Numbered from the stretch's first letter, positions 16,801 through 44,468 are shown. The stretch: 64,000 nt of DNA from an uncultured Acidobacteriaceae bacterium (GCA_963765995.1 CAVXYT010000023.1:6995-70994), one strand, 5' to 3'. Notes: generated from the sequence alone by a model not told the origin. Program-made: numbers and translations.

Positions 16801-19720
16801 GGGCGCGGCAGCGGGAACAGTTTCGACGATTACCGGATACAGCGTAGCAGCGGGCGGCATTGCAACCTTCACAGCCGCAAACAGCCTGACCGCCGGGCAG
16901 TACGTCGATATTGAGGGATTGACTACTACGACAGGCACGACAATGAACCGGCTCATCGCGCCGGTTCTGGCTGCCGGACTATCCACGACGCAGTTTGAAA
17001 TACAGGCGAACGCATCGGCGACGACAACGACATCGGATTCCGGCACTGCAACGACCGTCAACGTGCTTCTTGTCTTTGATTCCAGTGCCAGATACGAACA
17101 GTCCCTCAAGAATATGGAGTTTGCCCTGGCATCCGGCGCGACTACGGGGTCGCTGCAAGTAGACGTGTACTACGGTAGCCGCGTTGATACCGGAACCCAC
17201 GTTGAGAATACCTGGGCGGAGCAAGCCACGATGTATGGTTACTACTTTTCCGGCGGGGGCATCAACGTAGACTTCGACAAAGGCTGGCGGTGCGACTCTG
17301 CCGGGATATCCTGCATCTATTGGCGGCTGTCAGGAGGGGATTCCTTTGGAATAGCCAACGGAACGGCAGACAACAGTCAAGGCGGCACGATGACGCCGAG
17401 CGGCGGCCTGTTAATGGTGGATGGCGCTCCCTGCGTCAACACCTCGTTCCTAAATTTCGAGTCACGGAATGTGCTGTTTGAAGTGAACTCTACGATTACC
17501 TCTGGCCTGGGCATTTTTACGCTGTATGATTGCCCATCAGCCGCACAGAATTTTAACCTGAACCTGGAAAGCACGAGAGAAAGCATAGCTGCGGCATCCA
17601 CCTCCGGTTTCAATTTCCCGGCTATCGTCATGTCTCCGCCGAGTGATTCAAAGCTCACCTTGAACATGGCCGATGGTGGATTCTACAATGGCACCGCGCC
17701 CAACACAACCACAAGGTTTGTTGGGATTCCGGCATTGATGAGAGACGATATAGGAGACGGCCCATTCCTGAGTTATGCTCCTTCGTTCAATAGCCTTGCG
17801 GCTGCTAATAATGCTCCGGAACCGATCTCTCTGATAGGCGATGTTGAGTTCAGCCAACTCTGGCAGCACGGGGTTGAGGCATCGGCATTTCTATTCTCAG
17901 ATACAGCGTACGCCGCGCTTCCCAACGGGACAACGCTGTACTCCGGCCAGGTGCTCGCGCCCCCAGCCTACTGGAACGGGGCCAACGGGAAGCGGTATGC
18001 TCTCGACGTTGTATACCAAACCGGCACGACCGGTTCCCCAAACGCCGGAGCTACCACCTGCACGGATACCGGCTATACAGGAACCATGACCTGCTCCAGC
18101 GCCACGGACTTGTCAGCCGGAAGCGTACTCACGCTAGGGAGCGAAAGCCAAATTACAGTTGCATGGGTGGACAACACGAATCCTTCGGCTGTTATCGTGC
18201 ATAACACAACTTCTTTGCCGCACACAACCAATTCGTCTGCTACTGCGTTGTCCTTCACCGCGCCGGTGCTGGGACCAGAGATTCAAATGCCGACGAAATC
18301 CGCAGCCGCGCCTTCTGCTTTGGCATGGTCGCAGGGAGACTTCGAGCAGAACTCCAGCGCGGTGGCGAATGGTATCTGCGGATGGGTCAATGTGTCAGCC
18401 GGTACGCCGGGAACCTGGACGGCCATTCCGTGCGCCAATAGCAGCGGGCAGATTACAGCGTCTCAGATCGCGCCCGCGTCTCTTCAGGGAACCGATTCAA
18501 AGATTCTTACAGCCGGGACAGTATCGGGCACGGGAGCAGCTCTCTGCACAGACAGCAATGGAGGCGCAACTACTTCCGGCTGCTCCGGGGGCTCCGGGGC
18601 ACCTGCCAATACACCGTCCTGGCTTCAGTATCTTGGCAGCGGAGCGGATGGCTCGTATGAATACAGTTCTACCGGAAGCTGCTCGACGAGTCCGACACAT
18701 TGCGTGACAAGCTGCACTTCGTCAGCGCCGTGTTCGATGGCCGGCGGCGAAATGATCACTACTAATTTTCAAGTGGATTCCGGGGCGTACATCTATGACA
18801 ACATTGCCAGCACGGCAGGGCTAACCATTCATTCACAGGGAGCTTGCAACATCTACGGAACGATTCTGGTCAACGGAGCGAAGAGCACCTGGCCTGCCGG
18901 AAATAAAGGCGTCGGGGGCGGTCCTTCCGGCGGCTCAGGTGGAGGCACCGCGGCGGGTACGGCAGGAACCGCGACTTATCCTACGATTGCCAACACAGGT
19001 TTAGGGAACACATCTGGCGGCACAGCCGGGGCTGCAAGTGGCGGCAACGGTGGAAACGGGACCGCGCCGAGCGCAAATTTTCAAAGATCGGTCACGAACG
19101 CCGGAATTGGCGGAATGGATGGGATGTATCTCACTGGAGCAGCCGGGGTGCAGGGCGGAAGCACTGGCGGCGCGGGCGGTGAAGGTGGTCAAGGACTGGT
19201 TATGATGTGTGCCACGATGAACGGCACAGGCGGCGTCATCGACGCAAGCGGCGCTTATGGGATGCCCCCAGCCGCAAACTCGACTGGGGCAGGAAGCGGC
19301 GGCGGCGGCGGAGTTGTGCTTCTATCCTCGCAAGCTGCTGTTACAAACTGGCCCACAGTTTATGTTGCGGGCGGACCTGGGGGATTGGTCACCGTGCCGG
19401 AAGCCCTGGCAACAGGCGGCGCCTGCACCTCTCAGCCGAAGGCCACTCTCGGCGTTACCAGCGGGGCGTTCAGCGGAACCTGCACGGTGGCGCAAGCGGG
19501 GGCCGGTTGCGGCACGGGCGCAGGCATTACATGGAATATTGCCGGTGGCGGCGGAACGGCGGGAACGGCTGTCATCAACCCAACTTGGAGCAGCGGCACA
19601 CTGGCAAGCTGCACGGTAACGCCGGGTACAAGCACAGGCTATACGGCAGCGACTTACACGACTGCGGGAAAGGGCGGCGACGGCGCGACAGGCTGGTACG
19701 CGGAGTTTGCGGGGTGGTAG
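13823..19720 (+). CDS. Giant tail fibre/tailspike-like protein with two predicted beta-helix regions, Gly-rich C-terminus and N-terminal signal-like peptide
   Basis: About 1965 aa from ATG 13823; fibre-type SKAYVD and AADKHYVD motifs; pectate_lyase_3-type FGAVGNGSTDDTAAIQAAFD; Asn/Gly/Thr-rich repeats; GG-rich tail. Confidence 0.7.
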   Translation: MKLTNHKWLRVNGWIGLLLIELCLMFLGLASKAPAQAISTTTVQGTVYLANGQPATGTLVVSWPSFTTASGQLVTADSTTVTIAPDGFVSVNLAPNLGATPAGLYYTAVYYMSDGSTNTQYWVVPTGTQATLGQVQAQLMPATRAVQAVSKAYVDQAIAELTGSLLTGSGGTLSGPLTLCCDPTLPLQAADKHYVDAASALAVPLTGATMTGPLTSVKLGALYQVDQFSGSDFGAKLSACLSGLSSTNGGTCDARNFTGTLSMGSNLTISTANATVLLPCATISTANQLMVAAGTRNVSLRGCALRGASTASGSQGGTVFLYSGTGAMVQVGDPTYAADTMGFHLDNVVINTTASSSGAAQGLAAYRTQEMDLESLYFLGNSNQTGMTLDGTGNYTGGTFLDNEFNGYQTAVNAIGHQISNPATTDWVNASTFVRLHIDCPTSGGSPISGSYGINLQQGDGNTFTGGDVEGCSTALHLGANAQNNMIVGLRNENSTNQVVADAGSSYNNWMTGGTMFTGQLTDNGTRNSFLDAFHRSFNGLNGDWYGSQKDATVTNHYRLGTGAGNERGLLDRYQSDYGYRWTLGLSDATAGEQFYQILDELNNVYRLSVGQNNNGQSSTNNQTVINAAGTGAVVLNGSNNAGTGGVVIGSGGASETTVATIGNTGNAQFNGTLQVGGASTLAGTATVKNQADAEIDATLWAGLTTSQKESFIYKDWNGNSQWYMVKDGSNNWALNSATGGLDSFKAYQSANSGDTYINTSNASGVVRINYETGSGTQLKVYGGNSSTLYASFTGAALIQFPGLAASSGHNCLQIDNSGYVTNTGTACGSGSTSGTVNTGTSGQIAYYSGAGTTLSGTNTVSVTAGGTGASTASSALANLGGASLAGASFTGPVSVSTTLSVANNASIGPRYDVTNSAFGAVGNGSTDDTAAIQAAFDACYHGGVAPYGGVVEFPGPHSFVVSSTINAHDSCQVEGVVGSSTVANAPVRVLWKGAAAGTVSTITGYSVAAGGIATFTAANSLTAGQYVDIEGLTTTTGTTMNRLIAPVLAAGLSTTQFEIQANASATTTTSDSGTATTVNVLLVFDSSARYEQSLKNMEFALASGATTGSLQVDVYYGSRVDTGTHVENTWAEQATMYGYYFSGGGINVDFDKGWRCDSAGISCIYWRLSGGDSFGIANGTADNSQGGTMTPSGGLLMVDGAPCVNTSFLNFESRNVLFEVNSTITSGLGIFTLYDCPSAAQNFNLNLESTRESIAAASTSGFNFPAIVMSPPSDSKLTLNMADGGFYNGTAPNTTTRFVGIPALMRDDIGDGPFLSYAPSFNSLAAANNAPEPISLIGDVEFSQLWQHGVEASAFLFSDTAYAALPNGTTLYSGQVLAPPAYWNGANGKRYALDVVYQTGTTGSPNAGATTCTDTGYTGTMTCSSATDLSAGSVLTLGSESQITVAWVDNTNPSAVIVHNTTSLPHTTNSSATALSFTAPVLGPEIQMPTKSAAAPSALAWSQGDFEQNSSAVANGICGWVNVSAGTPGTWTAIPCANSSGQITASQIAPASLQGTDSKILTAGTVSGTGAALCTDSNGGATTSGCSGGSGAPANTPSWLQYLGSGADGSYEYSSTGSCSTSPTHCVTSCTSSAPCSMAGGEMITTNFQVDSGAYIYDNIASTAGLTIHSQGACNIYGTILVNGAKSTWPAGNKGVGGGPSGGSGGGTAAGTAGTATYPTIANTGLGNTSGGTAGAASGGNGGNGTAPSANFQRSVTNAGIGGMDGMYLTGAAGVQGGSTGGAGGEGGQGLVMMCATMNGTGGVIDASGAYGMPPAANSTGAGSGGGGGVVLLSSQAAVTNWPTVYVAGGPGGLVTVPEALATGGACTSQPKATLGVTSGAFSGTCTVAQAGAGCGTGAGITWNIAGGGGTAGTAVINPTWSSGTLASCTVTPGTSTGYTAATYTTAGKGGDGATGWYAEFAGW

Positions 19721-19793
19721 GCAGGATCGGCCTGGGTTCCAGTAAATAGGCAAGCCCTTCAGAGAGCCGGAGCACAATGCAAGGAGCACACGG

Positions 19794-21401
19794 ATGGCGG
19801 CACACAGCGCGGGGCTTGTGCGGGAGCGCGTGGACAGGTTTCTCAAACTTGAGAAAGATATGGCGGAGAAAACAGAAGGAAGCACGGCAGTTGCGGGGGA
19901 GCCGCGCTTGTGCCCGGAGAAGCTCAACCGAGAGGAGCTGGAGCGATTTGGGCGGATTCTGGATTCCCGGCCGTCGAGCATGCGGGGGCGGACGGTGGGC
20001 ATGGCGCTGGCCGAGCAGCTTTTGCAGGTAAGGACGCGGGATGGGAGCACGGCGCCGTTGAAGGCGAACGCGGTGCAGCGAGCCTTTGAGCGGCGGCGGG
20101 GCGAGCGGAATATCGTGCTGAAGGCGCGGCAGATGGGGTTGACGACCTGGGCGGCAGCGCGGTTTTTTCTGAAGACGATTACCCGGCCGGGGACACTGAC
20201 GCTGGAGGTTGCGCACACGCAGGAGGCGGCCGAGGAGATCTTCCAGATCGTTCACCGGTTTGTGGACTGGCTACCGGAGGAACTGCGCGAAGGTCCGCTG
20301 CGGACCTCGCGAGCCAATGTGCGGCAGATTGTGTTTCCGGAGATGGATTCGCAGTACAGAGTGGTATCGGCGGGCGAGCGGAACGCGGGGCGGGGATTGA
20401 CGGTGCAGAATCTGCACTGCTCGGAGCAGGCGCGCTGGCCGGGCGATCCGGCGGAGACGCTGGCGGGATTGCGAGCGGCGATGGCGCCGGGAGCGGAGCT
20501 GATTCTGGAGTCGACGCCGGAAGGAGTGGGCGGATGCTTCCACGAGGAGTGGCAGAAGGCCGGCGAGACGGGGATGGTGCGGCACTTCTTTCCCTGGTGG
20601 ATGGAGCAGCGGTACCGGGCCAGGGCGGCGGATAAGGCGAGCCTGACGAACGAAGAGCGGGACCTGATGGCGCACCGCAAACTGGACCTGGAGCAGATTG
20701 GTTATCGACGGCAGATACGGGCGGATTTTCGCGGGCTGGCGCGGCAGGAGTATGCGGAAGATTGCGAAAGCTGCTTTCTGGCCAGCGGGGATTCGGTCTT
20801 TGAGCTGGCGGCGATTGAAGCGCGGCTGGCAACATCGACCGAACCGATTGAACGGCGGCAAAATGGGGAGTTGGAGATTTGGCTGCCGCCGCTCAAGGGC
20901 AAACAGTACCTGGTGGCGGTTGATCCGGCCGGCGGCGGGAGCGAGGGCGACTACTCGGCGGCGCAGGTGCTGGAGCTGGAGACGGGGCTGCAGTGCGCGG
21001 AGTTTGCCGGACACATGGGGGGTCTGGAGCTGGCGCGGCTGGTGACGGCGCTGGCCGATGAGTACAACCAGGCGTGGCTGGTGGTGGAGAGGAATAACCA
21101 CGGGAGCGGCGTTCTGGCGCTGATCGAGACGGCGTGCGGTTACGGGAAGATCTACCGGCAGGGTGGGCAGGCGGGCTGGCTGACGACGTCGGTGAGCCGG
21201 CCGGCGGCGCTGGGGCGGCTGAATGCTGGGCTGGTGGAGGAGCCGGAGCGTTTTCAGAGCCGGAAGTTGCTGGCCGAGTGCCGGAGTTTTGTGCGCCGGC
21301 CGGACGGCGGGAGCGGGGCGCGGCCGGGGACGCATGACGACCGGGTGATGGCGATGGCAATCGGGCTGGGGGCGCGGGCGGAGTTGGTAGGGAAAAGCTA
21401 G
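19794..21401 (+). CDS. Terminase large subunit
   Basis: Walker A IVLKARQMGLTT, Walker B LHCSE, ESTPEG coupling motif, nuclease YLVAVDPAGG..DYSA and HDDRVMA. Confidence 0.92.
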   Translation: MAAHSAGLVRERVDRFLKLEKDMAEKTEGSTAVAGEPRLCPEKLNREELERFGRILDSRPSSMRGRTVGMALAEQLLQVRTRDGSTAPLKANAVQRAFERRRGERNIVLKARQMGLTTWAAARFFLKTITRPGTLTLEVAHTQEAAEEIFQIVHRFVDWLPEELREGPLRTSRANVRQIVFPEMDSQYRVVSAGERNAGRGLTVQNLHCSEQARWPGDPAETLAGLRAAMAPGAELILESTPEGVGGCFHEEWQKAGETGMVRHFFPWWMEQRYRARAADKASLTNEERDLMAHRKLDLEQIGYRRQIRADFRGLARQEYAEDCESCFLASGDSVFELAAIEARLATSTEPIERRQNGELEIWLPPLKGKQYLVAVDPAGGGSEGDYSAAQVLELETGLQCAEFAGHMGGLELARLVTALADEYNQAWLVVERNNHGSGVLALIETACGYGKIYRQGGQAGWLTTSVSRPAALGRLNAGLVEEPERFQSRKLLAECRSFVRRPDGGSGARPGTHDDRVMAMAIGLGARAELVGKS

Positions 21402-21557
21402 TGGTCAGGGATCAGGGGTCAGGGGTCAGGGGTCAGGGGTCAGGGGTCAGATGAATTGTTCGCGCCATTTTCGGGATGTCAAGCATTTCTTCAGAAGATC
21501 AATCTGCTCGCGCCATCGAAGAGAAACTGATCACTGACCACTGTTCACTGTTCACTG
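21401..21557. repeat. Inverted heptamer-repeat arms between terminase and kinase genes
   Basis: GTGGTCA GGGATCA (GGGGTCA)x5 at 21401-21449; TGATCAC TGACCAC TGTTCAC TGTTCAC at 21528-21555. Confidence 0.85.
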
Positions 21558-21571
21558 TCAACGCTTAGAAT
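21544..21571 (+). promoter_or_regulatory. Candidate sigma70 promoter for the kinase/DUF3037 pair
   Basis: TTCACT-N16-TAGAAT, the -35 lying inside the heptamer arm; GGGGGA Shine-Dalgarno before TTG 21607. Confidence 0.45.
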
Positions 21572-21606
21572 TCGATTGTGGCTGTGGACGCGGCGGGGGA
21601 ACGGGC

Positions 21607-22479
21607 TTGGCGGTACTGGCGGTGCAGCATATCCGGCGGATGCGGGGCGGAGCGCAGGGCCAGTTGATGCTGGGCGCGGACGGCCAGGTCTACGTGGTGA
21701 AGTTCCAGAACAACCCGCAGCATATGCGGGTGCTGGCCAACGAGTTTCTGGCCTCACGGCTGGCGGCGGCGGCCGGGCTGGCGGCGCCGGAGACGGAACT
21801 GGTGGAGGTTTCGAGCTGGCTGGTGGAGAATACACCGGAGCTGGAGATCGACCTGGGCAGGAAACGGGTCCGGTGCCAGGCGGGCTTGCAGTTCGGATCA
21901 AGATTTGTGGGCGGCCTGATGCCGGGGCAGGTGGTGGACTACCTGCCCGAGGAGCAGATGACCGAGGTGAGAAACCTGGGCGAGTTTGCCGGCATCCTGG
22001 CGCTGGACAAGTGGACCGGCAATGCGAATGGCAGGCAGGCGGTCTTCGCGCGCAAACAGCGGGAAAGGCGCTACCGGGCGGTTTTTATCGACTACGGGTA
22101 TTGCTTTCACGCCGGGGAATGGAGGTTCGAGGATCTTCCGCTGCGCGGGGTGTATTACCGCAACGATGTCTACCGGGAGATCAGAGGATGGGAATCCTTT
22201 GAGCCCTGGCTGACGCGGCTGGAGACGATGGCGGCGGAGACGGTGTGGGCGGCGGCCAGCGAGGTACCCCCTGAATGGTATGGCGGCGATCTGAGCGAGA
22301 TGGAAGCGCTGGTGGAGAAGCTGCTCCAGCGGCGGAGCCGGATTCGCAAGCTGATTGAAGGATTCGGGAAGTCGGATCGGAAGCCATTTCCGAAATGGGG
22401 CGGGATGGGGAAAGATGTGATGGAAGAGGGTTGGAAAGAGGAACGGTGGGGGACTAACATGACGGGGAGAGTGAATTAG
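21607..22479 (+). CDS. HipA-like (HipA_2-type) Ser/Thr kinase
   Basis: Gly loop MRGGAQ, YVVKF, LANEFLA, FGSRF, catalytic-loop region LDKWTGNANGRQ, DFG-equivalent FIDYGYCF. Confidence 0.85.
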   Translation: MAVLAVQHIRRMRGGAQGQLMLGADGQVYVVKFQNNPQHMRVLANEFLASRLAAAAGLAAPETELVEVSSWLVENTPELEIDLGRKRVRCQAGLQFGSRFVGGLMPGQVVDYLPEEQMTEVRNLGEFAGILALDKWTGNANGRQAVFARKQRERRYRAVFIDYGYCFHAGEWRFEDLPLRGVYYRNDVYREIRGWESFEPWLTRLETMAAETVWAAASEVPPEWYGGDLSEMEALVEKLLQRRSRIRKLIEGFGKSDRKPFPKWGGMGKDVMEEGWKEERWGTNMTGRVN

Positions 22480-22504
22480 AACGAGGCCAGGCGACAGCCA
22501 GATC

Positions 22505-23380
22505 ATGAGTAGCGGAAACGAACGGCGGGCATGCGAGTTTCAACTGCTCCGGTATGTGCCGGATGCGGTGCGGAACGAGTATGTGCATATCGGGGTGATC
22601 CTCCGCGAGCAGGGCGGCGGGCCAACGGAGATCCGGCTTACCCGCGACTGGCGCCGCGTGCGCTGTCTGGATCCGGAGGCCGACACCGCGCTGCTGGAGG
22701 GGATGGAGAGCGAGCTGCGCAGGCGCTTTGAGGCCGAGCCGGATGGGAATCTGATGCGGTTGCTCAGCGAATCGCTCTCGCTGAGCGTGCAGATGACCGA
22801 ACCCAAGGCGTACCTGGCGGAGAGCCTTCCGGCGGGGATGGAAGAGTTGATGCGGCTTTACGTGGAGCCGCCGCCGAGAGAACGAATCCCGCGGCTGAGC
22901 GGCCGGGCGGCGATTCAGGCGAGGATGCGGACAGAGTTTGAACGGGCCGGGGTGTGGGATCTGCTGAGAAAGAAGATTGCGGCTTCGGAGTACACGCGAC
23001 CGGGGGATCCGCTGCGGATTGACGTGGGGTACCGGCCGAATGGGGTGCGCCACCCCGCGGACAAAGACCCGTCCGCGGGGACCCCGTTCATCCGCATGTT
23101 TCACGCGGTGAGCCTGGAGCCGGGCGTGGAGATGGCCAAGGTGCTGGCATTTTCGGCGGCGGGATTGCGGGCCGGCGTGGAGCGCGTGGAGAAGGCCAGC
23201 CTGGAGCTGACCGCGGTGATCGAGCCCGCATTGAAGCTGGGAGCTACCGGCGAGGAGCCGGAGCGGCTGGAGATGTACCGGTTTGGCGTGGAGACGATGG
23301 AAGAAAACCTCATAAGGGTGCTGACGACGTCGGACCTGGGGCGGGTGGCGGAGACGGCGCGGCGGGAGCTGCGGGTGTGA
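22505..23380 (+). CDS. DUF3037 family protein (partner of HipA-like kinase)
   Basis: N-terminal FQLLRYVPDAVRNEYVHIGVIL signature; directly downstream of the kinase. Confidence 0.85.
   Translation: MSSGNERRACEFQLLRYVPDAVRNEYVHIGVILREQGGGPTEIRLTRDWRRVRCLDPEADTALLEGMESELRRRFEAEPDGNLMRLLSESLSLSVQMTEPKAYLAESLPAGMEELMRLYVEPPPRERIPRLSGRAAIQARMRTEFERAGVWDLLRKKIAASEYTRPGDPLRIDVGYRPNGVRHPADKDPSAGTPFIRMFHAVSLEPGVEMAKVLAFSAAGLRAGVERVEKASLELTAVIEPALKLGATGEEPERLEMYRFGVETMEENLIRVLTTSDLGRVAETARRELRV
23051..23085 (+). repeat. 35-bp palindromic repeat family A, inside DUF3037 gene
   Basis: CACCCCGCGGACAAAGACCCGTCCGCGGGGACCCC, translated HPADKDPSAGTP. Confidence 0.88.
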
Positions 23381-23385
23381 GGACA

Positions 23386-23567
23386 GTTGTCAGTGATCAG
23401 TTGTCAGTTCTTTTCGTATAGATTGCAGCTGACGGAAAATTATCAGCACAGGCTTGCAGATAATTATCGGTGTTTGCGGTAGGATCGATTTTGTTGTGAA
23501 GTTCAAGCGGTTGGAAGTCACGGTCTGTCGGCGGGTAGCTGATCACTGACCACTGACAACTGATCAC
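23386..23567. repeat. Inverted heptamer-repeat arms between DUF3037 and portal genes
   Basis: GTTGTCA GTGATCA GTTGTCA at 23386-23406; TGATCAC TGACCAC TGACAAC TGATCAC at 23540-23567. Confidence 0.85.
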
Positions 23568-23579
23568 TGGCGAAGATGA

Positions 23580-23615
23580 GGCATGGCCCTTTCCGGGGCT
23601 GTGCCTTTTTGTTTT
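23580..23615 (+). terminator. Intrinsic terminator immediately upstream of the portal gene
   Basis: Stem GGCATGGCCC / GGGCTGTGCC (10 bp, 2 G-U), 6-nt loop, followed by TTTTTGTTTT. Confidence 0.7.
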
Positions 23616-23635
23616 GGGGCGGCGGGAAAAGGAAG

Positions 23636-24913
23636 GTGCGCGTGAAGGTAGGAGAGCAGTTGCGGGAGATCTGGCGGCAGGCGACCGGAAGTGGCCGCAG
23701 GACGGAGATAGCGGCGGGCGCGGCAGATGCGGAGGCGGAGCGCAGGACGCTGGCGCTGCCTGCGATCCTGAGCCCGGTCCAGTTTCCGGGACAACACTTG
23801 CCCAAGCCGACACCGATGAATCTGCGTAGATTTGCGGAGACCCCGGTTGTCCGGCGAGCGATCAACGTGATCAAGGATCGCATTGCGGCCATGGACTGGC
23901 AGGTGAGGGTGCGGCGCGGCGTGAGGCCGGGAGATTTGGCCTTTGCGGAACGCAAGCTGCGCGCGCTGCGCCGCACGCTGGAAGAGCCGAATGCGACGGA
24001 CAGTTTTCGGACCTTGATTGAACAGGTGATTGAGGACGCGCTTACGGGCGGGTACGGGGCCATCGAGATGGAGCCGACCGGCGACACAGAGCGGCCGGCG
24101 ATGCTGTGGGCGGTGGATGGGGCGTCGATCCGGATCAATCCACGCTGGGACGGACAGCCGGAGACGCCCCGGTATGCGCAGGCGATGCCGGGGCAACTGG
24201 AGTCGAGCGCGATCGAGTTGCGCGACGACCAGCTTATGTATGTGCGCATGAATCCGCGCAGCTTTACGCCCTTCGGGCTGGGACCGCTGGAAGTGGCCTT
24301 CGAGACGGTGAACCAGTTCTTGAGCGCGCACCGATTTGCAGGCAAGCTGGCGGCGAACGCGGTGGCGCAGTATGCGCTGTGGCTGAACGAGGCGACGCCC
24401 GCGCAGCACGACCGGCTGATTCGCTGGTGGCAGGACGAGATCGAGGGAACAGGGCGGGTGCCGTTGATTTCGACCGAGCAGAAGCCGGAGGTACTGCGCT
24501 TTGCCCAGGGGACGGACGCGGATATGCGGCTGGCCTGGCAGGAGTTTCTGATCCGCATGGTGGCTAACTCCTTCGGGCTGCCGCCGCTGATGCTGGGACT
24601 GGAGGCGGATGTCAACCAATCGACCGCGTCGGAGATGACCGATGAGGCCTTCCGCGGGGCGATCTCGCCGTTGGCGATGCTGCTGGCCGGGCACATTACC
24701 CGTGACCTGTTCGGCAAGTGCATTGGCTGGCGGGAGTTTGAGTTTGTCTTCAACGAACTGAACGCGAGGGACGAGGAGACGGAGCTGGCGGTGCAGGTGC
24801 AACTGCTGCAGGCCGGCGTGTTGACGGTGAACGAGGTGCGGGCGATGCGGGGATTGGGACCGCTGGGGCAGGATGGGGCGGCGCAGTTGACGGGCGGAGC
24901 GGAGAGCGCATGA
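23636..24913 (+). CDS. Phage portal protein (HK97-like)
   Basis: VRRAINVIKDRIA, LIEQVIED.LTGGYG.IE, FGLGPLE, FGLPPLMLG, GVLTVNEVRAMRGLGPL; GTG 23636 with GGAAGG upstream (ORF open from 23576). Confidence 0.9.
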   Translation: MRVKVGEQLREIWRQATGSGRRTEIAAGAADAEAERRTLALPAILSPVQFPGQHLPKPTPMNLRRFAETPVVRRAINVIKDRIAAMDWQVRVRRGVRPGDLAFAERKLRALRRTLEEPNATDSFRTLIEQVIEDALTGGYGAIEMEPTGDTERPAMLWAVDGASIRINPRWDGQPETPRYAQAMPGQLESSAIELRDDQLMYVRMNPRSFTPFGLGPLEVAFETVNQFLSAHRFAGKLAANAVAQYALWLNEATPAQHDRLIRWWQDEIEGTGRVPLISTEQKPEVLRFAQGTDADMRLAWQEFLIRMVANSFGLPPLMLGLEADVNQSTASEMTDEAFRGAISPLAMLLAGHITRDLFGKCIGWREFEFVFNELNARDEETELAVQVQLLQAGVLTVNEVRAMRGLGPLGQDGAAQLTGGAESA

Positions 24914-25410
24914 GACTGGAAGCGATGGCGGTAAAGATTCCCCATGTGGACGGGCACCCCAACCGGGTGGCGTTTGAAGGGGTGTTGACGATGGTGAATT
25001 CAGCCAGCGACAAGGCGCCGGCGGGGGCGCGCGGACACCGGGTGATGCTGACCCGCGAGGCGGCGGAGAAGGCGCTGCCTTCGCTGCTGGGCATGGCGGT
25101 GGACTACCGGCCGGGATGGGACGGCCACGACGCGCGGCGCAAGATCGGGTTGCTGACCGAGGCGGATCTGGCGGGCCAGCGACTGGTGGTTCGCGGGTAT
25201 CTCTACGCGCGAGACTTTCCCGAGGTGGCCGAGGCCATACAGGCGCAGACTCCCGAGGCGCTGGGCATGAGTTATGAACTGGCCGACGCGCGGGTGGAAG
25301 ATATGCGGGCCGATGTGTGGAAGCTGACCCGCGTGACCTTTACCGGAGCGGCAATCCTGCTGCGGGACAAGGCGGCTTACCGGGCCACCAGCTTCCGCAT
25401 GGCGAGTTAG
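24910..25410 (+). CDS. Prohead (maturation) protease-like protein
   Basis: GHD and GMSYE motifs matching the His/Ser of HK97/assemblin-type proteases; FTGAAIL; position after portal. Confidence 0.7.
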   Translation: MRLEAMAVKIPHVDGHPNRVAFEGVLTMVNSASDKAPAGARGHRVMLTREAAEKALPSLLGMAVDYRPGWDGHDARRKIGLLTEADLAGQRLVVRGYLYARDFPEVAEAIQAQTPEALGMSYELADARVEDMRADVWKLTRVTFTGAAILLRDKAAYRATSFRMAS

Positions 25411-25425
25411 CAAAAACAGTTCACT

Positions 25426-25570
25426 GTTGTCAGTTGTCAGTTCTCAGTCATTGGTTCACAGCAAGCCATCGATAGAGAGCCGTGGAGAAGTCGCGTCTCG
25501 ATAGCAGCTAACTGTAACTGATCGCTGGAAGCTGACAACTGATCACTGATCACTGAGAACTGACAACTGA
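25426..25570. repeat. Inverted heptamer-repeat arms between protease and scaffold genes
   Basis: GTTGTCA GTTGTCA GTTCTCA at 25426-25446; TGACAAC TGATCAC TGATCAC TGAGAAC TGACAAC at 25533-25567. Confidence 0.85.
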
Positions 25571-25583
25571 AGAAAGGAATGAA

Positions 25584-25982
25584 ATGGAAAACAAAGAGCA
25601 AGAGATTACGGAGCGGCTGGAAGCCGCGACGACCCTGCTGGAGCGGACACTGAGCTGGCTTGAGGAGCGGCAAGGCGTCTTGACCGGCGAAGTGGAGAGG
25701 ATTTCGGCGACCGTCGAGCAGGGCCGGCGGGAGGCGGAACTGGCGGAGAAGCTGGCCGCCGCCGAACGGGAGTTGGCCGAGGTGAAGGCTGGGGCTGCGC
25801 AAAATGTGTTGAACCCGCTGCGCAGGACGTTGCCCTCGACAACCAGCGAGATGCTGGCCAAGCACGGCATCGGCGAGGGCCCGGTGGACGTGCGGACCCT
25901 GGATGCGGCACTGGCCGGGCTGAGCCTGGAACAGCGCATCGCGGTCAAGAGCCAACTACTGCGGGCAGGCGCAATCGCATAA
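25584..25982 (+). CDS. Coiled-coil scaffold-like protein
   Basis: Glu/Ala/Leu/Arg heptad pattern; between protease and capsid genes. Confidence 0.55.
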   Translation: MENKEQEITERLEAATTLLERTLSWLEERQGVLTGEVERISATVEQGRREAELAEKLAAAERELAEVKAGAAQNVLNPLRRTLPSTTSEMLAKHGIGEGPVDVRTLDAALAGLSLEQRIAVKSQLLRAGAIA

Positions 25983-25987
25983 AAGCA

Positions 25988-26008
25988 GTTTTCAGTTGTC
26001 AGTGATCA
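25988..26008. repeat. Heptamer repeat arm before the capsid gene
   Basis: GTTTTCA GTTGTCA GTGATCA. Confidence 0.75.
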
Positions 26009-26045
26009 CTCAAGCAACGGCCCCATGGAGGGGGCGGAGAAGCCT

Positions 26046-27014
26046 ATGAACGCAACCTTTGCAGACATTCACGCGGCAGCAGACTATATCGGGCCGGGCG
26101 CTATCGAAGTTCCGTTGTATCAGACCGAAATTTTCGACATCTGCCGGCGTTCGAGCCCCTTCGGGCAGCGCATCAAGCAGGTTCCGGCGACCGGGCATCC
26201 GTCGCGGTTCTTCGAGGAGACGGCGATTCCGAATCCGGGAACGGCCGGCTTTGTGAATCCGCGCAGCATCGCGCCTACGGTGGTAAGCCCGACGCGCGTG
26301 GAGCGCAGCGTGCCGCTGAAGGCAATCGTTTCGCAGATCAACTACAACCTCTTCGACATCGAGCTGGGCGACCAGCAGAAGCAGTTTGCCTATCTCCAGG
26401 CCAAAGACCTGGTGGATACGGTGAGCGGCGTGATGGTGGCTCATGACGTGGCCTTGTGGAACGGCAACGACACCAGCCTGAGCTCGCCGACGACCACGCA
26501 GTACATGGGCGTGATTCCGCAGATTGTGGCGGGCGGCCTCACGACGACCATCGGCACGACGGCATCAATCGTGGATGGAATCAAGTCGGCTGTGGCGCAG
26601 ATGGTAGCCAATAACGGCTTCCATGTTCGGCCCACGGCGATCTACGCCAACCCCGTGCTGCTGGACCTGATCGACCGGGAGATGAAGACCGAGTTCAACG
26701 TGGTGCTGAATACCGACAACATCACGGGCGGTATTCGGGTGAAGATGCTTTCGACGCAGGCGGGCGATCTGCCGCTGATTCCGGACTGGAGCCTGAGTTA
26801 CACGGGCACGCCGGGCTCGGGCACGGCGGTTTTGCCGGCCTACATCGTGACCGAGGATCTGATCGAGTACCACTGGCTCGGCGATCCGACGCCGCGCATC
26901 TTCCAACTGGGACTGCCGAACTCGCTGACTTACCAGTATGTCGCGGTCAAATTCGGCGCGCCGGTGGTGAAGGGCGCCAACTACGCGCACTACCAGGTTC
27001 TGGTGGACCGGTAG
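26046..27014 (+). CDS. Major capsid protein (HK97 fold, SU10-like)
   Basis: 322 aa, beta-rich; DVALWNG, PTAIYANP, STQAGDLPLIPD; syntenic position portal-protease-scaffold-capsid. Confidence 0.8.
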   Translation: MNATFADIHAAADYIGPGAIEVPLYQTEIFDICRRSSPFGQRIKQVPATGHPSRFFEETAIPNPGTAGFVNPRSIAPTVVSPTRVERSVPLKAIVSQINYNLFDIELGDQQKQFAYLQAKDLVDTVSGVMVAHDVALWNGNDTSLSSPTTTQYMGVIPQIVAGGLTTTIGTTASIVDGIKSAVAQMVANNGFHVRPTAIYANPVLLDLIDREMKTEFNVVLNTDNITGGIRVKMLSTQAGDLPLIPDWSLSYTGTPGSGTAVLPAYIVTEDLIEYHWLGDPTPRIFQLGLPNSLTYQYVAVKFGAPVVKGANYAHYQVLVDR

Positions 27015-27023
27015 ACAACGGCA

Positions 27024-27117
27024 GTGATCAGTGAACAGTGGTCAGTGAACAGTAACAACTGACCGCTGTTCACTGCGTGCCGGAGTTTTGTTCTGATCAC
27101 TGACCACTGACAACTGA
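27024..27117. repeat. Inverted heptamer-repeat arms between capsid and neck genes
   Basis: GTGATCA GTGAACA GTGGTCA GTGAACA at 27024-27051; TGATCAC TGACCAC TGACAAC at 27094-27114. Confidence 0.85.
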
Positions 27118-27129
27118 AGGAAGGATCTT

Positions 27130-27753
27130 ATGGCATATCTGCAGCCAGCGGATTATCAGAATTATGGCTTGCCGGCAGGCACGACGGCGGATTGGATTAC
27201 GGCCGCCACGGCATTGATCAACAGCTACTGCAGGCGGCCAGACCTGAACGTGATCCAGTACATGGAGCGGTTGCGGCTGACCAGCGGATCGCAGACGATG
27301 TTGTTGAGCTATCTTCCATTGGCGCTTCTGGGAACGGCTACAACGCCGATAGTGAGCATCGAGGGCCGTTATGCAAGACCGCGGCGCGGCGAGTTTCCGA
27401 ACCAGCCGCTTCTGGAGATCGCGTTGGCGTTTTCGCTGCCAGGGCAGTGGACGGCGATCGATCCTAACTCCGTAGACTACGACCCCAATACCGGGGAGCT
27501 TACGCTGCCATGGAATGTGCTGGGGCTGCCTTACAACGAGGTGGCGGTGACTTATACGGCGGGGCTGGCGACGATTAGCGACGACGTGAAGACGGCGTGC
27601 GCGCAGATTGTCCGGAATGCGCAGTCCACGCCGGCTCTGAACGCAAGCAAGACCAAGATCGACACGATGCAGATGCAGTATTTCTCGAGTTCGCTGGTGG
27701 ACGAAACAGTGCAGGCCTGGCTGCGTCCCTACGTGGCGAACAGGCTGGGGTGA
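27130..27753 (+). CDS. Head-tail connector (adaptor) protein
   Basis: MAYL...ATALINSYCRR and VAVTYTAG...ISDDVKTACAQIV...L.PY pattern of gp6/gp15-like adaptors. Confidence 0.75.
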   Translation: MAYLQPADYQNYGLPAGTTADWITAATALINSYCRRPDLNVIQYMERLRLTSGSQTMLLSYLPLALLGTATTPIVSIEGRYARPRRGEFPNQPLLEIALAFSLPGQWTAIDPNSVDYDPNTGELTLPWNVLGLPYNEVAVTYTAGLATISDDVKTACAQIVRNAQSTPALNASKTKIDTMQMQYFSSSLVDETVQAWLRPYVANRLG

Positions 27754-27756
27754 AGG

Positions 27757-28191
27757 ATGAGCGATACGGCAGCGCGCAACCCTGTGGGAGCGCCGCGGAT
27801 GCTGGCCGATGCCCTGCTGCGAAGCGTGACAGGAACGACGGCCCTTCTGCGGGTGACGGGCGCAAATACGGATAGCAGTCAGTCCGAGGTGGGGCTGGTG
27901 GCAACGGCTTTTGCCGAAGTGGTGATAAGCCCGGTGGTTATGCGCAAGCTGCGGCCTACCTGGCAGGAGAATGGCGAGTCAAAGTGGGAGCTGCTGGTTT
28001 CGGCGACTGGTGTGGAACAACAGGTGAATGCGCTGGACCTGGCATCGGCCCAGTCTCTGTTTGCGATGACTCTGGCGATTACGGTAGCGGGACAGGATTA
28101 TCTGATTGAGTCGATTGGCGCAAACGAAGCCTTCGGCCAGGTGTATCTCTACCGGTTGCTGTTGCGGGAAGCAAGGCAGCAGGCAGTGTGA
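27757..28191 (+). CDS. Putative head-closure (stopper) protein
   Basis: 144 aa beta-rich ORF ending GQDYLIESIG...YLYRLLL; position after adaptor. Confidence 0.5.
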   Translation: MSDTAARNPVGAPRMLADALLRSVTGTTALLRVTGANTDSSQSEVGLVATAFAEVVISPVVMRKLRPTWQENGESKWELLVSATGVEQQVNALDLASAQSLFAMTLAITVAGQDYLIESIGANEAFGQVYLYRLLLREARQQAV

Positions 28192-28196
28192 GAGCA

Positions 28197-28372
28197 GGGA
28201 TCAGGGGTCAGGGATCAGGGGTCTTGATGCGTGATCAATGGCCAAAACCGTGTTTCCGACCCAATCGCGGCTTTTTGTCAACGAACATTGACCCGGAAAG
28301 GTGAGTGGGAAAGCAAGGGAAGTTGATCAAGGAGAGGTTTTCTGATCCCTGATCCCTGACCCCTGATTCCTG
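28197..28372. repeat. Inverted heptamer-repeat arms before the tail genes
   Basis: GGGATCA GGGGTCA GGGATCA at 28197-28217; TGATCCC TGATCCC TGACCCC TGATTCC at 28343-28370. Confidence 0.85.
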
Positions 28373-28379
28373 TCTTCTT

Positions 28380-28865
28380 ATGCAAAATGCGAAAGATTCG
28401 TTTTATATGGCACTGCGCACGCGGCTGGCGGCGATCAATCCAGAGCGGACGATTCTGCTGCGCGGAGCGGTAAGGCCAGGGATTCTGGCGGAGGAAGCCG
28501 AGGCTCCCTTCAGCCAGCTTCCCAACGATGTGTTTGTTCTGCGCTGGCTGGGCCTGGGCGTCGATTTTGATCTCGGGTCCATGATGGTGGCCGAGCAGTG
28601 CGAGGTGATCTATCAGACCTGCGGAACGCAAAGCTTCAGCGGGTTGGACCGCGGCCGGTCGCTGAGCGAGTTGGACGAGGAACTTGTGGCGATGATGCAG
28701 CCTTTCTACACCGCCAAGCTTAACTTCACGGCAACGCCGCCGGCGGCGATGCTGACGAAGGTGTTCTGGGATGAGCCGGAGTTTGCGCCGATCGTGGTCC
28801 AACGGGACCAGCTGAGCCGTTCCGCAAAAGTGATGGTTTACAGCTACCAGGAGCAGGGGGAGTAA
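28380..28865 (+). CDS. Putative tail terminator/completion protein
   Basis: 161 aa, N-terminal helix SFYMALRTRLAA then alpha/beta pattern; position between neck and tube genes. Confidence 0.45.
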   Translation: MQNAKDSFYMALRTRLAAINPERTILLRGAVRPGILAEEAEAPFSQLPNDVFVLRWLGLGVDFDLGSMMVAEQCEVIYQTCGTQSFSGLDRGRSLSELDEELVAMMQPFYTAKLNFTATPPAAMLTKVFWDEPEFAPIVVQRDQLSRSAKVMVYSYQEQGE

Positions 28866-29840
28866 ATGGCGACGACTTGGTTTTCGGCTCCCGCACCGGT
28901 GGCGCGGCGGGTTCGAGGGTATTTTGCGCCGGTGAACCGGACGGTGCAGACGCCAGTGCTCTTCGACCCGGCGGAGCAGGGCAGTTTCAGCCTGAGCGCT
29001 CCGCCGGCTCCATGGATCAGCCTGGGTTGGATTCAACAGTTCACACGCAAGCAGGGAAGCAAGACCGCCGCTGTGTTGACGGGCATTCCCGCTGGAACGC
29101 TGGAGCAGGTGCGCGAGACGCTTGAGGCGCAGGTGAGCTTTGAATTTCTGAGCTGGACCAAACTGACCATGGCTCTGGCGACGGGCTCGCAACACATGAA
29201 CCTGCTGGCTCCCGCAAGCGGAGCGACTCTGGCGGCGGATGGAGCAACGGCTGCCGCGGCAGTTACGGTGCTGAGCGGATCGACGGCTACATCCATCGTG
29301 CTGGCCTCGGCCGATGCGGCTACTTTTTCTGCTGGTTCGATCATTGCGCTGGACGCGGATTACACGGGGCAGACCGGATATGTGGGCGCGCCTGTATCTG
29401 GAGCGTATGTGCGCACTGCATTAACGGATGTAAATTACATCCGGCGCGTGACCTTTAACGTCGCATTGGTGTCTGCGGTGACTTCCACCGGCTTAACACT
29501 TGCCGAGCCGTTACCGGGCGGAGCTCCTGCGGCCGGTTCCAGGTTGCAGGCAGTCACAGGATTTGTGGATCGCGAGGGCGGCTGTTTCTATCAAGAGTGG
29601 TCGGCGCTGTTTGTGATGGAGGGCAGCCAGGGGGAACGGATCTTCTTCCACTATCCACGGCTGCAGACCATGGCCAGCGCACAAGAAACCGCATTGCCGT
29701 TGGACGGCAAGCAGAAGGCCGGGCTGGCGCGGGTGTTGCTCAAAGGCCAGTTTCTGGCGCTGCCCGTGACCGATCCTCTGGATGGGGAGCGAGTGGTCTG
29801 TTACCGGAGTTTCCTGCCCGCGGCACACGCTCTGGTGTAG
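28866..29840 (+). CDS. Putative tail tube protein with inserted domain
   Basis: Beta-rich N- and C-terminal parts (WISLGWIQQF, QVSFEFL, RIFFHYPRL) around an Ala/Thr/Ser-rich insert; synteny. Confidence 0.5.
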   Translation: MATTWFSAPAPVARRVRGYFAPVNRTVQTPVLFDPAEQGSFSLSAPPAPWISLGWIQQFTRKQGSKTAAVLTGIPAGTLEQVRETLEAQVSFEFLSWTKLTMALATGSQHMNLLAPASGATLAADGATAAAAVTVLSGSTATSIVLASADAATFSAGSIIALDADYTGQTGYVGAPVSGAYVRTALTDVNYIRRVTFNVALVSAVTSTGLTLAEPLPGGAPAAGSRLQAVTGFVDREGGCFYQEWSALFVMEGSQGERIFFHYPRLQTMASAQETALPLDGKQKAGLARVLLKGQFLALPVTDPLDGERVVCYRSFLPAAHALV

Positions 29841-29890
29841 GCGAGTCGGCAAGTCAGCACAACAGCAAGTCAGCAGGGCAGAGAGTCACG

Positions 29891-32206: not shown

Positions 32207-32250
32207 ACGATATTTTTTGAACGATGGTGGATGGGGTCCGGCATATGCGG

Positions 32251-34318: not shown

Positions 34319-34377
34319 AGGGGAGCTTTTCCTTCTCTTGGTTCGGCCAAGCGGGCCATGGGTTTGGAGAGAAATAC

Positions 34378-34400
34378 AGGGATCAGGGGTCAGAGATCAG
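34378..34400. repeat. Single heptamer repeat arm upstream of typA
   Basis: GGGATCA GGGGTCA GAGATCA. Confidence 0.65.
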
Positions 34401-34587
34401 GTATCAGAAGACCCTCAAAGCACTCTCAACATAGAGACATTTGCCGCACAATGCGTCACCTTCTATTGTATCAGCAGTGGAGAAAAGCAGGCCCAGCGCG
34501 GGTGGATCCGCTTTTGCCCGCTAGAAATCATGCACCGAGCGCGCATCCATCGCAGTAAAATGGCCTTGCTTCGCTTTTGCTCTCCGC

Positions 34588-44054: not shown

Positions 44055-44174
44055 CTGCGCTCGACAGGGCCGTTTTCACCTCCACGGCGGAATTCGCGCG
44101 CCTGTTTGCGGATAATTACTGTCCCTCGTCGCACAATCAATACATGAACAAGGTCCAGAGTCACGTGCACTTCC

Positions 44175-44198
44175 TGACCACTGACCACTGATCACTGA
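44175..44198. repeat. Single heptamer repeat arm in the LOG-trpC spacer
   Basis: TGACCAC TGACCAC TGATCAC TGA. Confidence 0.7.
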
Positions 44199-44468
44199 AA
44201 GCTGGGTACCCCCCCACCCCCCCTACCCCAGGGGGGTATAAATTTCCCCTGAAACCTTGCAGATTATTTCTAACCCGTTTGTAATCAATGCCTGTTGAAA
44301 ACTTTTCGCCCCCAAATTCTCCCGCATGGTGAGATTTGACCCCTGAAAATCACCGGAAAAATCCGATTTTCGCCTAAATAAAAAACCCTAAAGCGTCGCT
44401 CCATGGCCTTTCCGCTAACTTGCCGGAGGCCTTGCGCTTCGGACTTTTCCGTATACTCATCGCAGAGT

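What the first reader, a model, noticed from the sequence alone, without database searches (positions are those of the whole stretch)
21401..28372. Inverted heptamer-repeat arms punctuate the cluster's gene junctions
Seen: at terL/kinase, DUF3037/portal, protease/scaffold, capsid/adaptor and stopper/terminator junctions, a run of G(T/G)NNTCA-type 7-mers starts right after the stop codon and the complementary run ends just before the next ribosome-binding region, enclosing 40-135 nt. A lone arm precedes the capsid gene. Elsewhere in the window there are only two lone 7-mer arms (34378, 44175). Established: cyanobacterial STRR elements are similar heptamer arrays; long mRNA stems are RNase III sites and stabilisers. 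Inference: these stems segment the polycistron to set subunit stoichiometry, or record preferential repeat invasion of a rarely expressed locus.
Basis: partly seen in the sequence, partly recalled or inferred. Interest (0 to 1): 0.62.

Follow-up and report, generated by a model that had tools for sequence, protein, structure and literature searches.

The report
Heptamer-repeat hairpins between operon genes
The mirror-image runs of 7-base repeats between the phage-like head genes are real, but they belong to a genome-wide family of hairpin inserts that also fills the gaps of the ribosomal-protein and other core operons, a kind of bacterial repeat already described in Xanthomonas and cyanobacteria.

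Summary
Observation confirmed. Five gene junctions between 21397 and 28374 carry two inverted arms of tandem 7-mers (unit NNYAGNN, about 5 units per arm). A lone arm follows the scaffold gene. The 5' arm starts 0-6 nt after the stop codon.

The arms are not special to this cluster. This Terracidiphilus (Acidobacteriaceae) genome holds about 176 such arrays and 48 inverted pairs. Of these pairs, 45 lie between co-directional genes and 39 of those 45 abut the upstream stop codon. The other hotspot is the ribosomal-protein super-operon (10 pairs). Further pairs sit in rpoB/C, atp, nuoA/B, mreBC and similar operons. That excludes "invasion of a rarely expressed locus".

In 80 orthologous clusters the same junctions are open, but occupancy, repeat flavour and loop sequence change even between near-identical flanks. 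This argues against a fixed stoichiometry role.

The architecture and the strand rule match the GGGAATC inverted pairs of Xanthomonas (Rehm 2015), the TAACTGA repeats (MacGregor 2015) and the heptamer-stemmed rRNA intervening sequences cut by RNase III. This scan has met the same kind of element in other genomes.

Verdict: a new member of a known kind.

The parts
21397..21452 (+). terL/kinase junction, 5' arm: 8 units, mostly GGGGTCA. The terL stop TAG (21399-21401) lies in the first unit. Seven G-tracts give G-quadruplex potential.
21525..21559 (+). terL/kinase junction, 3' arm: 5 units of CACTGNN type. It is a poor complement of its 5' arm (16 nt matched; hairpin z -0.6).
23382..23410 (+). 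DUF3037/portal junction, 5' arm (CAGTTGT/CAGTGAT units). It starts 1 nt after the TGA stop.
23537..23571 (+). DUF3037/portal junction, 3' arm (CTGATCA/CTGACCA/CTGACAA units). Hairpin -74 kcal/mol, z -7.0. The loop holds a core sequence conserved in relatives.
25415..25449 (+). Protease/scaffold junction, 5' arm. It starts 4 nt after the TAG stop.
25516..25571 (+). Protease/scaffold junction, 3' arm: 8 units. It ends 12 nt before ATG 25584, flush with the Shine-Dalgarno sequence GAAAGGA. Hairpin z -3.7.
25984..26009 (+). Lone 5'-type arm (3 units) directly after the scaffold stop. It ends in the small palindrome AGTGATCACT, and it looks like a collapsed pair. Relatives mostly have a full pair at this junction.
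27020..27054 (+). Capsid/adaptor junction, 5' arm: 5 units of CAGTGAN type.
27057..27077 (+). Capsid/adaptor junction, inner short 3' arm (3 units). It forms an inner hairpin with the 5' arm.
   Evidence: I9
27091..27118 (+). Capsid/adaptor junction, outer 3' arm. It ends 11 nt before ATG 27130, flush with the Shine-Dalgarno sequence AGGAAGGA. Hairpin z -5.0.
28193..28223 (+). Stopper/next-gene junction, 5' arm (CAGGGAT/CAGGGGT units). It starts 1 nt after the TGA stop.
28340..28374 (+). Stopper/next-gene junction, 3' arm, 93% complementary to its partner. Hairpin -92 kcal/mol, z -6.5. It ends 5 nt before ATG 28380.
34375..34409 (.). Lone array outside the cluster. On the minus-strand mRNA it reads as the CTGA type, 56 nt upstream of a start codon.
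44172..44206 (.). Lone CTGA-type array between two plus-strand genes.

Best explanation
The arms are gene-less copies of a genome-wide family of heptamer-repeat hairpin cassettes. Each cassette has two inverted arrays of about five NNYAGNN units around a unique loop. The family is the acidobacterial counterpart of the Xanthomonas GGGAATC inverted pairs, cyanobacterial STRR and the TAACTGA repeats.

Shown here:
- The cassettes sit between the stop codon of one gene and the ribosome-binding site of the next co-directional gene.
- In mRNA sense the G/T-rich TCAG-type arm follows the stop, and the C/A-rich CTGA-type arm precedes the start.
- The two arms of a pair match each other better than they match other arms of the same genome.
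- Cassettes are gained, lost and replaced as units between close relatives.
- They pile up in long core operons (ribosomal proteins, rpoBC, atp, nuo) as well as in this phage-like head cluster.

Inferred:
- They are self-propagating or mutationally regenerated elements (slippage plus arm-to-arm template switching). They are tolerated only where they leave the stop codon and the Shine-Dalgarno sequence intact.
- Once transcribed inside the polycistronic mRNA, they fold into 25-35 bp stems that RNase III can cut, as it cuts heptamer-stemmed rRNA intervening sequences. This would sever or insulate neighbouring cistrons as a side effect. It would not be a device tuned for this cluster.
For: Genome-wide census:
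- About 176 arrays, against 17 in a reversed-genome control.
- 158 of 176 arrays are intergenic and 129 lie between co-directional genes.
- 48 pairs in the F..R order (TCAG-type arm first, CTGA-type arm second), against 2 in the R..F order.
- 45 of 48 pairs are co-directional, and 39 of those 45 start -5 to +10 nt from the upstream stop.
- Lone arms obey the same strand rule.

Hotspots:
- Ribosomal-protein operon, 10 pairs.
- Core operons confirmed by Pfam.
- The same ribosomal-protein and mreBC hotspots in a complete same-genus genome.

Hairpins:
- Median z -5.7 for the 48 pairs, against -0.9 for control gaps.
- True partners pair better than swapped ones: p 1.7e-4 in this genome, and p 6e-10 against same-genome swaps in 91 pairs from relatives.

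Turnover:
- Variable occupancy in 80 syntenic clusters.
- Empty versus filled sites at g161/g324 and adaptor/stopper, with a complete swap of the insert between near-identical flanks.
- Coding identity with locus L001 (the closest relative's copy of the cluster) is 89-97%; junction identity is 17-79%.

Known parallels: PMC4692102, PMC4679880, PMC4990558. An RNase III gene is present in the genome.
Against: - No transcript data could be obtained, so cleavage, stability effects and even co-transcription are unshown.
- Loops are unique, so simple copy-and-paste of whole elements is excluded and the way new cassettes arise is unknown.
- At DUF3037/portal the arms flank a loop core conserved across relatives. 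This fits arms evolving in place better than insertion as a unit.
- The terL/kinase pair barely pairs (z -0.6).
- Strong enrichment in multi-subunit operons, and the strict strand rule, could equally reflect selection for a function.
Confidence: 0.6

Rival explanations
1. The hairpins are selected processing or stabiliser sites. They cut the head-gene polycistron into segments with different half-lives, so that portal, protease, scaffold, capsid and connector proteins are made in the right ratios.
For: - Long stable stems sit exactly at cistron borders.
- The same eight junctions are kept open (median 92-246 nt) in 80 relatives, while two others stay at 3-6 nt.
- Enrichment in operons for multi-subunit complexes.
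- RNase III cuts such stems in rRNA intervening sequences.
Against: - Only 15-60% of orthologous junctions carry any period-7 array.
- Presence differs between 98%-identical relatives: hipA/DUF3037 is 28 nt here and a 119-nt pair in L001.
- portal/protease overlaps here but is open in 79 of 80 relatives.
- The elements are not cluster-specific.
Confidence: 0.12
2. The hairpins preserve translational coupling. The stem base places the upstream stop codon next to the downstream Shine-Dalgarno sequence and start codon. A terminating ribosome melts the first repeats and is handed to the next cistron across a gap that is long in sequence but short in space.
For: - 39 of 45 pairs begin within a few nt of the stop.
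- In three junctions here, and in most ribosomal-protein junctions, the 3' arm ends flush with the Shine-Dalgarno sequence.
- Filled sites derived from TAAATG-coupled junctions carry a new Shine-Dalgarno sequence right after the 3' arm.
- The elements prefer operons known for coupling.
Against: - The same geometry follows trivially if an element inserts into an originally 10-20 nt gap.
- Lone arms obey the same position rules without a partner.
- At terL/kinase and DUF3037/portal the 3' arm is 48-70 nt from the start.
Confidence: 0.13
3. The arrays work as single strands. They are multivalent binding sites for a protein (S1, Csp, CsrA-like or the four-helix-bundle S23p family), or G-quadruplexes in the case of the GGG class. 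The strand rule reflects RNA recognition, and pairing of the two arms is secondary.
For: - The strand rule holds for lone arms.
- It matches Rehm et al. and MacGregor.
- GGGNNNN arms with four or more G-tracts occur at 21397-21452 and 28193-28223. In vitro G4 formation has been shown for GGGAATC repeats.
- PF05635 copy number correlates with array count across 60 genera (rho 0.74).
Against: - Partner-specific complementarity of the arms, and 48 F..R pairs where about 3 are expected from independent placement.
- Unit sequences are very diverse (CAGT, CAGG, CAGC, TAGC, TAGG), which is hard to reconcile with one binding protein.
- Three genomes of this genus have abundant arrays but no PF05635 gene.
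Confidence: 0.1
4. The hairpins are intrinsic or bidirectional transcription terminators, or attenuators, between the cluster's genes.
For: - In the ribosomal-protein operon several 3' arms are followed by T-runs (for example CCACTGTTTTTTGAGG).
- The stems are long and stable.
Against: - None of the five cluster hairpins is followed by a T-run.
- The terminator scan flags only the separate conserved hairpin at 23578-23607, plus a weak hit inside one arm.
- Termination inside ribosomal-protein operons would be costly.
Confidence: 0.05

Closest known systems
Xanthomonas GGGAATC and Nostoc GGGGAYT heptameric repeats (Rehm et al. 2015, PLoS One, PMC4692102)
   Same: [quoted passage not shown] - 70-75 convergent (inverted) pairs per Xanthomonas genome.
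- The repeats are transcribed.
- There is a modal arm length.
- Our GGGAATA, GGGATCA and GGGGTCA units are near-identical in type.
   Different: - Here many unit flavours coexist (CAGT, CAGG, CAGC, TAGC, TAGG), and most cannot form G4.
- The modal arm is 5 units, not 4.
- Pairs dominate within operons.
- The lineage (Acidobacteriaceae) is not covered by that paper.
Intergenic TAACTGA direct repeats of marine Beggiatoaceae, Cyanobacteria and Bacteroidetes (MacGregor 2015, PMC4679880)
   Same: [quoted passage not shown]
- They occur inside ribosomal-protein operons.
- They place stop codons in all three frames.
   Different: - Those repeats are almost always lone direct arrays (one indirect repeat in 170 sets) of a single unit.
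- Here the 3' arm is usually matched by a complementary 5' arm at the preceding stop codon.
Cyanobacterial STRR (short tandemly repeated repetitive) sequences
   Same: Heptanucleotide tandem arrays dispersed in non-coding DNA, some within operons.
   Different: STRR were defined as direct arrays of three fixed units in heterocystous cyanobacteria. An inverted-pair architecture and anchoring on the stop codon are not part of the definition.
23S rRNA intervening sequences carrying an S23p / PF05635 four-helix-bundle ORF (Coxiella burnetii; Warrier et al. 2016, PMC4990558)
   Same: - A long stem built partly of tandem heptamers (GACAGAT, which fits NNYAGNN) encloses a variable interior.
- The stem is cut by RNase III.
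- In Acidobacteriaceae relatives, PF05635 genes are flanked by inverted heptamer arrays in at least 6 of 12 loci examined.
   Different: - The hairpins here lie in mRNA spacers, not rRNA.
- They enclose 10-154 nt without an ORF.
- No PF05635 gene or remnant was found in this genome or in 568 junction sequences.
REP / BIME elements and REPINs with their RAYT transposases (my knowledge, Enterobacteria and Pseudomonas)
   Same: - Extragenic palindromic doublets inside operons and after stop codons.
- They are transcribed and act as mRNA stabilisers.
- They are rare in promoter regions.
- They evolve in a genome-specific way.
   Different: - REPs are a conserved 20-35-nt sequence, not tandem 7-mers.
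- The four Y1-transposase genes of this genome have no heptamer array within 3 kb.

Membership tests
Heptameric intergenic repeats of the Xanthomonas/Nostoc type (Rehm 2015) | Tandem repeats with a 7-nt unit, at least 2-4 units, strongly over-represented in non-coding DNA | tested here: met
   TRF period 7. 158 of 176 arrays are intergenic, and the count at period 7 exceeds that at periods 5, 8 and 10.
Heptameric intergenic repeats of the Xanthomonas/Nostoc type (Rehm 2015) | Preference for gaps between aligned ORFs; the G-rich strand follows the stop on the coding strand and lies on the non-coding strand upstream of ORFs | tested here: met
   129 arrays are co-directional, 17 convergent and 12 divergent. 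Strand and position rules hold for pairs and for lone arms.
Heptameric intergenic repeats of the Xanthomonas/Nostoc type (Rehm 2015) | Convergent inverted pairs in close proximity | tested here: met
   48 F..R pairs against 2 R..F pairs. All five junctions are found by the repeat finder.
Heptameric intergenic repeats of the Xanthomonas/Nostoc type (Rehm 2015) | GGGNATC unit able to form G-quadruplexes | tested here: inconclusive
   Only the GGG class (about a third of arms; class counts) has G-tracts. The CAGT and CAGC classes do not.
TAACTGA repeats (MacGregor 2015) | Direct repeats of the exact heptamer TAACTGA just upstream of start codons | tested here: not met
   Units are NNNCTGA with varied first three bases (CAACTGA, GAACTGA, CCACTGA, TCCCTGA), and the arrays are mostly paired. 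Position and orientation do match.
MITE (miniature inverted-repeat transposable element) | Copies share the internal sequence as well as the terminal inverted repeats; target-site duplication | tested here: not met
   All-against-all BLAST of 48 loops finds no shared sequence, except one segmental duplication of nuoA/B. No duplication is seen at the filled sites.
REPIN / RAYT system | A Y1 (IS200/IS605-like) transposase gene flanked by the repeats | tested here: not met
   There are four PF01797 matches, and none has an array within 3 kb.
S23p / PF05635 four-helix-bundle cassette (IVS type) | A PF05635 ORF enclosed by the inverted arms | tested here: not met
   No PF05635 gene in this genome (assembly 91% complete), none in the 80 cluster loci, and no remnants in 568 junction or hairpin sequences (best E 3.1). 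In relatives the ORF is flanked by such arms.
S23p / PF05635 four-helix-bundle cassette (IVS type) | Arrays occur only in genomes that carry the gene (claimed by earlier scan notes) | tested here: not met
   Across 60 genera rho is 0.74, and the ten gene-less genomes have 0-6 matches. In this genus, however, G072 (97% complete) and G079 (98% complete) have 97 and 120 matches and no gene. This genome has 167 matches and no gene.
Intrinsic terminators | GC-rich stem followed directly by a T-run | tested here: not met
   No T-run follows the five cluster hairpins. The scan flags only 23578-23607, which is a separate conserved hairpin, and a weak hit inside one arm.
RNase III processing sites | A double-stranded RNA stem of about two helical turns or more in a transcript, with cleavage dependent on rnc | not testable with these tools
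   Stems of 24-37 bp are predicted and an rnc homologue is present.

The most novel reading that the evidence does not exclude
The heptamer hairpins are not junk. They are a stop-codon-anchored device of long multi-subunit operons. A ribosome terminating on the stem base, or RNase III cutting the stem, sets how much of the next cistron is made. The arms are renewed by a dedicated, still unknown mechanism. On this reading the phage-like (gene-transfer-agent-like) head cluster is, together with the ribosomal-protein operon, one of the two most heavily equipped operons because it depends on this control.
Probability: 0.12. Interest if true: 0.7.

Novelty: new member of a known kind. Interest (0 to 1): 0.35.

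Why it matters
Heptamer repeats are the commonest long simple repeats in bacteria, and their origin and role are still unknown.

This genome gives a clean picture of their rules:
- They are anchored on stop codons.
- They are strand-specific with respect to transcription.
- They are paired into partner-specific hairpins.
- They are concentrated in the most important operons.
- They are exchanged as units between near-identical strains.

It also shows that the suspected link to the four-helix-bundle (S23p) gene is not strict.

For annotation, it warns that the long gaps in this conserved phage-like cluster are mostly repeat cassettes. Two exceptions contain conserved regulatory-looking sequence.

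Tried and rejected
- **MITE-like copy-and-paste.** Rejected, because the loops are unique.
- **REPIN/RAYT.** Rejected, because no arrays lie near the four Y1 transposase genes.
- **Decayed four-helix-bundle cassettes.** No PF05635 gene or remnant was found.
- **Strict dependence on PF05635.** Rejected by G072 and G079.
- **Terminators.** No T-runs follow the cluster hairpins.
- **Known RNA families.** Nothing relevant in Rfam at E <= 1 over 19000-35000.
- **Genome-specific repeat flavour (concerted evolution).** Only a weak signal: 0.35 for same genome, 0.34 for same junction, 0.26 for neither. I dropped the claim.
- **Within-class partner specificity in this genome.** Not significant (p 0.35 and 0.92). 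The partner effect here comes from class concordance (39 of 48). It is clear only in the larger set from relatives.
- **Conservation of the tuf/rpsJ and rpsJ/rplC hairpins across genera.** Low: about 3-5 of 27.
- **Ranking the cluster as a hotspot in the genome of L044.** Failed, because the hit list was truncated.
- **First folding script.** It timed out and was rerun.

Full report
**What is in the sequence.** Between 21397 and 28374 the plus strand carries a phage-like head module. Pfam supports a large terminase, a HipA-like kinase, DUF3037 and a portal. The following five or six small ORFs have no Pfam hit.

Tandem Repeats Finder reports ten period-7 arrays in this stretch. It reports only two more (34377, 44174) in the remaining 57 kb.

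The sequence itself shows that the first arm starts 0-6 nt after each stop codon. The terL TAG is part of the first unit. A three-unit lone arm follows the scaffold stop and ends in a small palindrome, as if a pair had collapsed.

The second arm ends flush with the Shine-Dalgarno sequence at three junctions. At terL/kinase, a conserved TAGAAT box and 48 nt lie between the arm and the start. At DUF3037/portal, the arm is followed by a conserved terminator-like hairpin (23578-23607). The portal most likely starts at GTG 23642.

Four of the five hairpins are far more stable than dinucleotide shuffles (z -7.0, -3.7, -5.0, -6.5). The terL/kinase pair mixes a GGGGTCA arm with a CACTGNN arm and is not more stable than shuffles (z -0.6).

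**Genome-wide picture.** The window is C23:6995-70994 of a 3.43-Mb, 30-contig assembly. Titles of related contigs place it in Terracidiphilus, family Acidobacteriaceae.

A detector for chains of YAG spaced by 7 nt finds about 176 arrays, against 17 in the reversed genome. Of these, 158 are intergenic. 129 lie between co-directional genes, 17 between convergent genes and 12 between divergent genes.

There are 48 pairs in the order TCAG-type arm then CTGA-type arm, and 2 in the opposite order. About three pairs would be expected if the arms were placed independently. Arms typically have five units. Loops are 10-154 nt and share no sequence.

Of the 48 pairs, 45 are between co-directional genes. 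In 39 of those 45, the first arm begins -5 to +10 nt from the upstream stop.

Lone arms follow the same rule. In mRNA sense, the TCAG type hugs the stop codon and the CTGA type hugs the next start. This also holds in long gaps, where the two positions can be told apart: 9 against at most 2, and 12 against 0.

The two arms of a pair usually belong to the same unit class (39 of 48). They pair better than swapped partners (p 1.7e-4).

**Not a property of the phage-like cluster.** The cluster is a hotspot, with 25-fold density. Five of 10 junctions carry pairs, against 45 of 1690 genome-wide (p 2.4e-6, post hoc).

It is not the only hotspot. Contig C5, 94-116 kb, is the str-S10-spc-alpha ribosomal-protein super-operon and carries ten pairs (p 1.3e-9).

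Other pairs separate:
- L1/L10 and L10/L7-L12
- rpoB/rpoC
- S6/S18 and S9/S2
- tuf/secE
- ATP-synthase subunits
- nuoA/nuoB
- mreB/mreC
- flagellar rod genes
- ilvB/ilvN and gcvH/gcvP

I read these from the sequences. Ten of them were confirmed by Pfam.

In a complete genome of the same genus, the densest run of arrays again lies around secY, and another lies at the mreBC region. This removes the reading that repeats have invaded a rarely expressed locus.

**Orthologous clusters.** The portal has more than 555 relatives at 80-98% identity. Eighty loci were fetched, and the gene order from terL to the tail genes is conserved.

Eight junctions are open in nearly all loci (median gap 92-246 nt). 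Adaptor/stopper and g161/g324 are almost always 6 and 3 nt. The content of the open junctions is in flux:
- A strict period-7 detector finds arrays in 15-60% of orthologous junctions.
- Unit flavours differ: CAGT, CAGC, CAGG, TAGC and TAGG.
- Locus L001, the closest relative (98% portal identity), has a 119-nt pair at hipA/DUF3037 where the window has 28 nt. It also has a different 5' arm and loop at terL/kinase.
- The portal/protease junction overlaps in the window but is open in 79 of 80 relatives.

Two normally tight junctions are filled in L073 and L074. The inserts sit exactly between stop and start, and a new Shine-Dalgarno sequence follows the 3' arm. The two genomes have entirely different arms and loops between flanks that are almost identical.

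Across 91 pairs from these loci, the true partner arms pair much better than arms swapped within the same genome (p 6e-10). A pair is therefore a unit.

At DUF3037/portal, however, the loop contains a roughly 45-nt core conserved in every relative inspected. Arms can therefore also turn over around resident sequence.

**What is known.**
- Rehm et al. (PMC4692102) described GGGAATC heptamers in Xanthomonas. These show the same preference for aligned ORFs and the same strand and position rule, with 70-75 convergent pairs per genome.
- MacGregor (PMC4679880) described TAACTGA arrays directly upstream of start codons, including inside ribosomal-protein operons.
- Warrier et al. (PMC4990558) showed that the stem of the Coxiella 23S intervening sequence contains GACAGAT heptamers and is cut by RNase III.

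A text search found no description of such repeats in Acidobacteria.

Earlier follow-ups of this scan report the same kind of element in other genomes. They tie it to the PF05635 four-helix-bundle gene.

I tested that link. The gene is present in 50 of 60 genera of the family, and it is flanked by inverted heptamers in at least 6 of 12 loci. Its copy number tracks array counts (rho 0.74).

This genome has none, and it shows no remnants in its hairpins. Two near-complete genomes of the same genus have about 100 arrays and no such gene. The link is a tendency, not a requirement.

**How it most likely works.**

Shown:
- Position, strandedness, pairing, instability and operon preference.

Inferred:
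- The cassettes persist only where they leave the stop codon and the Shine-Dalgarno sequence untouched.
- The arms are kept complementary by slippage and arm-to-arm template switching, or by selection on the stem.
- In the mRNA they form 24-37 bp stems, which the genome's RNase III could cut. This would separate cistrons.

The variability among close relatives argues against a junction-specific adaptation of the head module.

**Verdict.** The kind of element is already known. This is a new lineage, with an unusually clear set of rules. It is of moderate interest.

Noticed in passing
window 23454-23485 and 23578-23617: The loop of the DUF3037/portal hairpin holds a core (TTGCAG...TAGGAT, 20-nt spacing) conserved in all relatives inspected. 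After the 3' arm comes a conserved terminator-like hairpin with a T-run. The portal probably starts at GTG 23642 (Shine-Dalgarno GGAAGG), not at ATG 23576. This looks like a promoter plus leader terminator, that is, antitermination-type control of the head genes.
   Followed up: partly
window 21544-21571: A -10-like TAGAAT box is conserved upstream of the HipA-like kinase in relatives. Its -35-like TTCACT lies inside the 3' heptamer arm.
   Followed up: partly
window 21607-23380: A HipA-like kinase and a DUF3037 protein sit between terminase and portal. This placement is conserved in at least 65 of 80 orthologous clusters, which is odd cargo for a head module.
   Followed up: partly
own genome C24:156929-157772 (outside the window): Inverted heptamer arms (TAGGGAT / CTAATCC) enclose a VapB-like antitoxin and a PIN-domain (VapC-like) gene. 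The arms can therefore bracket gene cargo other than the four-helix-bundle gene.
   Followed up: partly
own genome, at least 31 sites (for example C24:156991); also in junction loops of L006 and L028: A second dispersed repeat: TTTCCCACCCTT - variable stem-loop - AAGGATGGGGCAC. The stem covaries between copies. It is a REP-like or small-RNA-like element.
   Followed up: no
own genome C4:96454-99010 and C12:141239-141424: Homopolymer A/T runs of 0.2-1.4 kb, most likely assembly artefacts.
   Followed up: no
own genome C15:93738-93819 and C19:6950-7031: The same heptamer hairpin, with the same 12-nt loop, sits between nuoA and nuoB in two copies of the nuo operon start. This is a segmental duplication, and it is the only case of a shared loop.
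   Followed up: partly
own genome C5:94020-115920: In the ribosomal-protein operon several hairpins include the TAA stop in the stem base. They are followed by a T-run and then GAGG (for example rpsL/rpsG). They therefore resemble bidirectional terminators placed inside an essential operon.
   Followed up: partly
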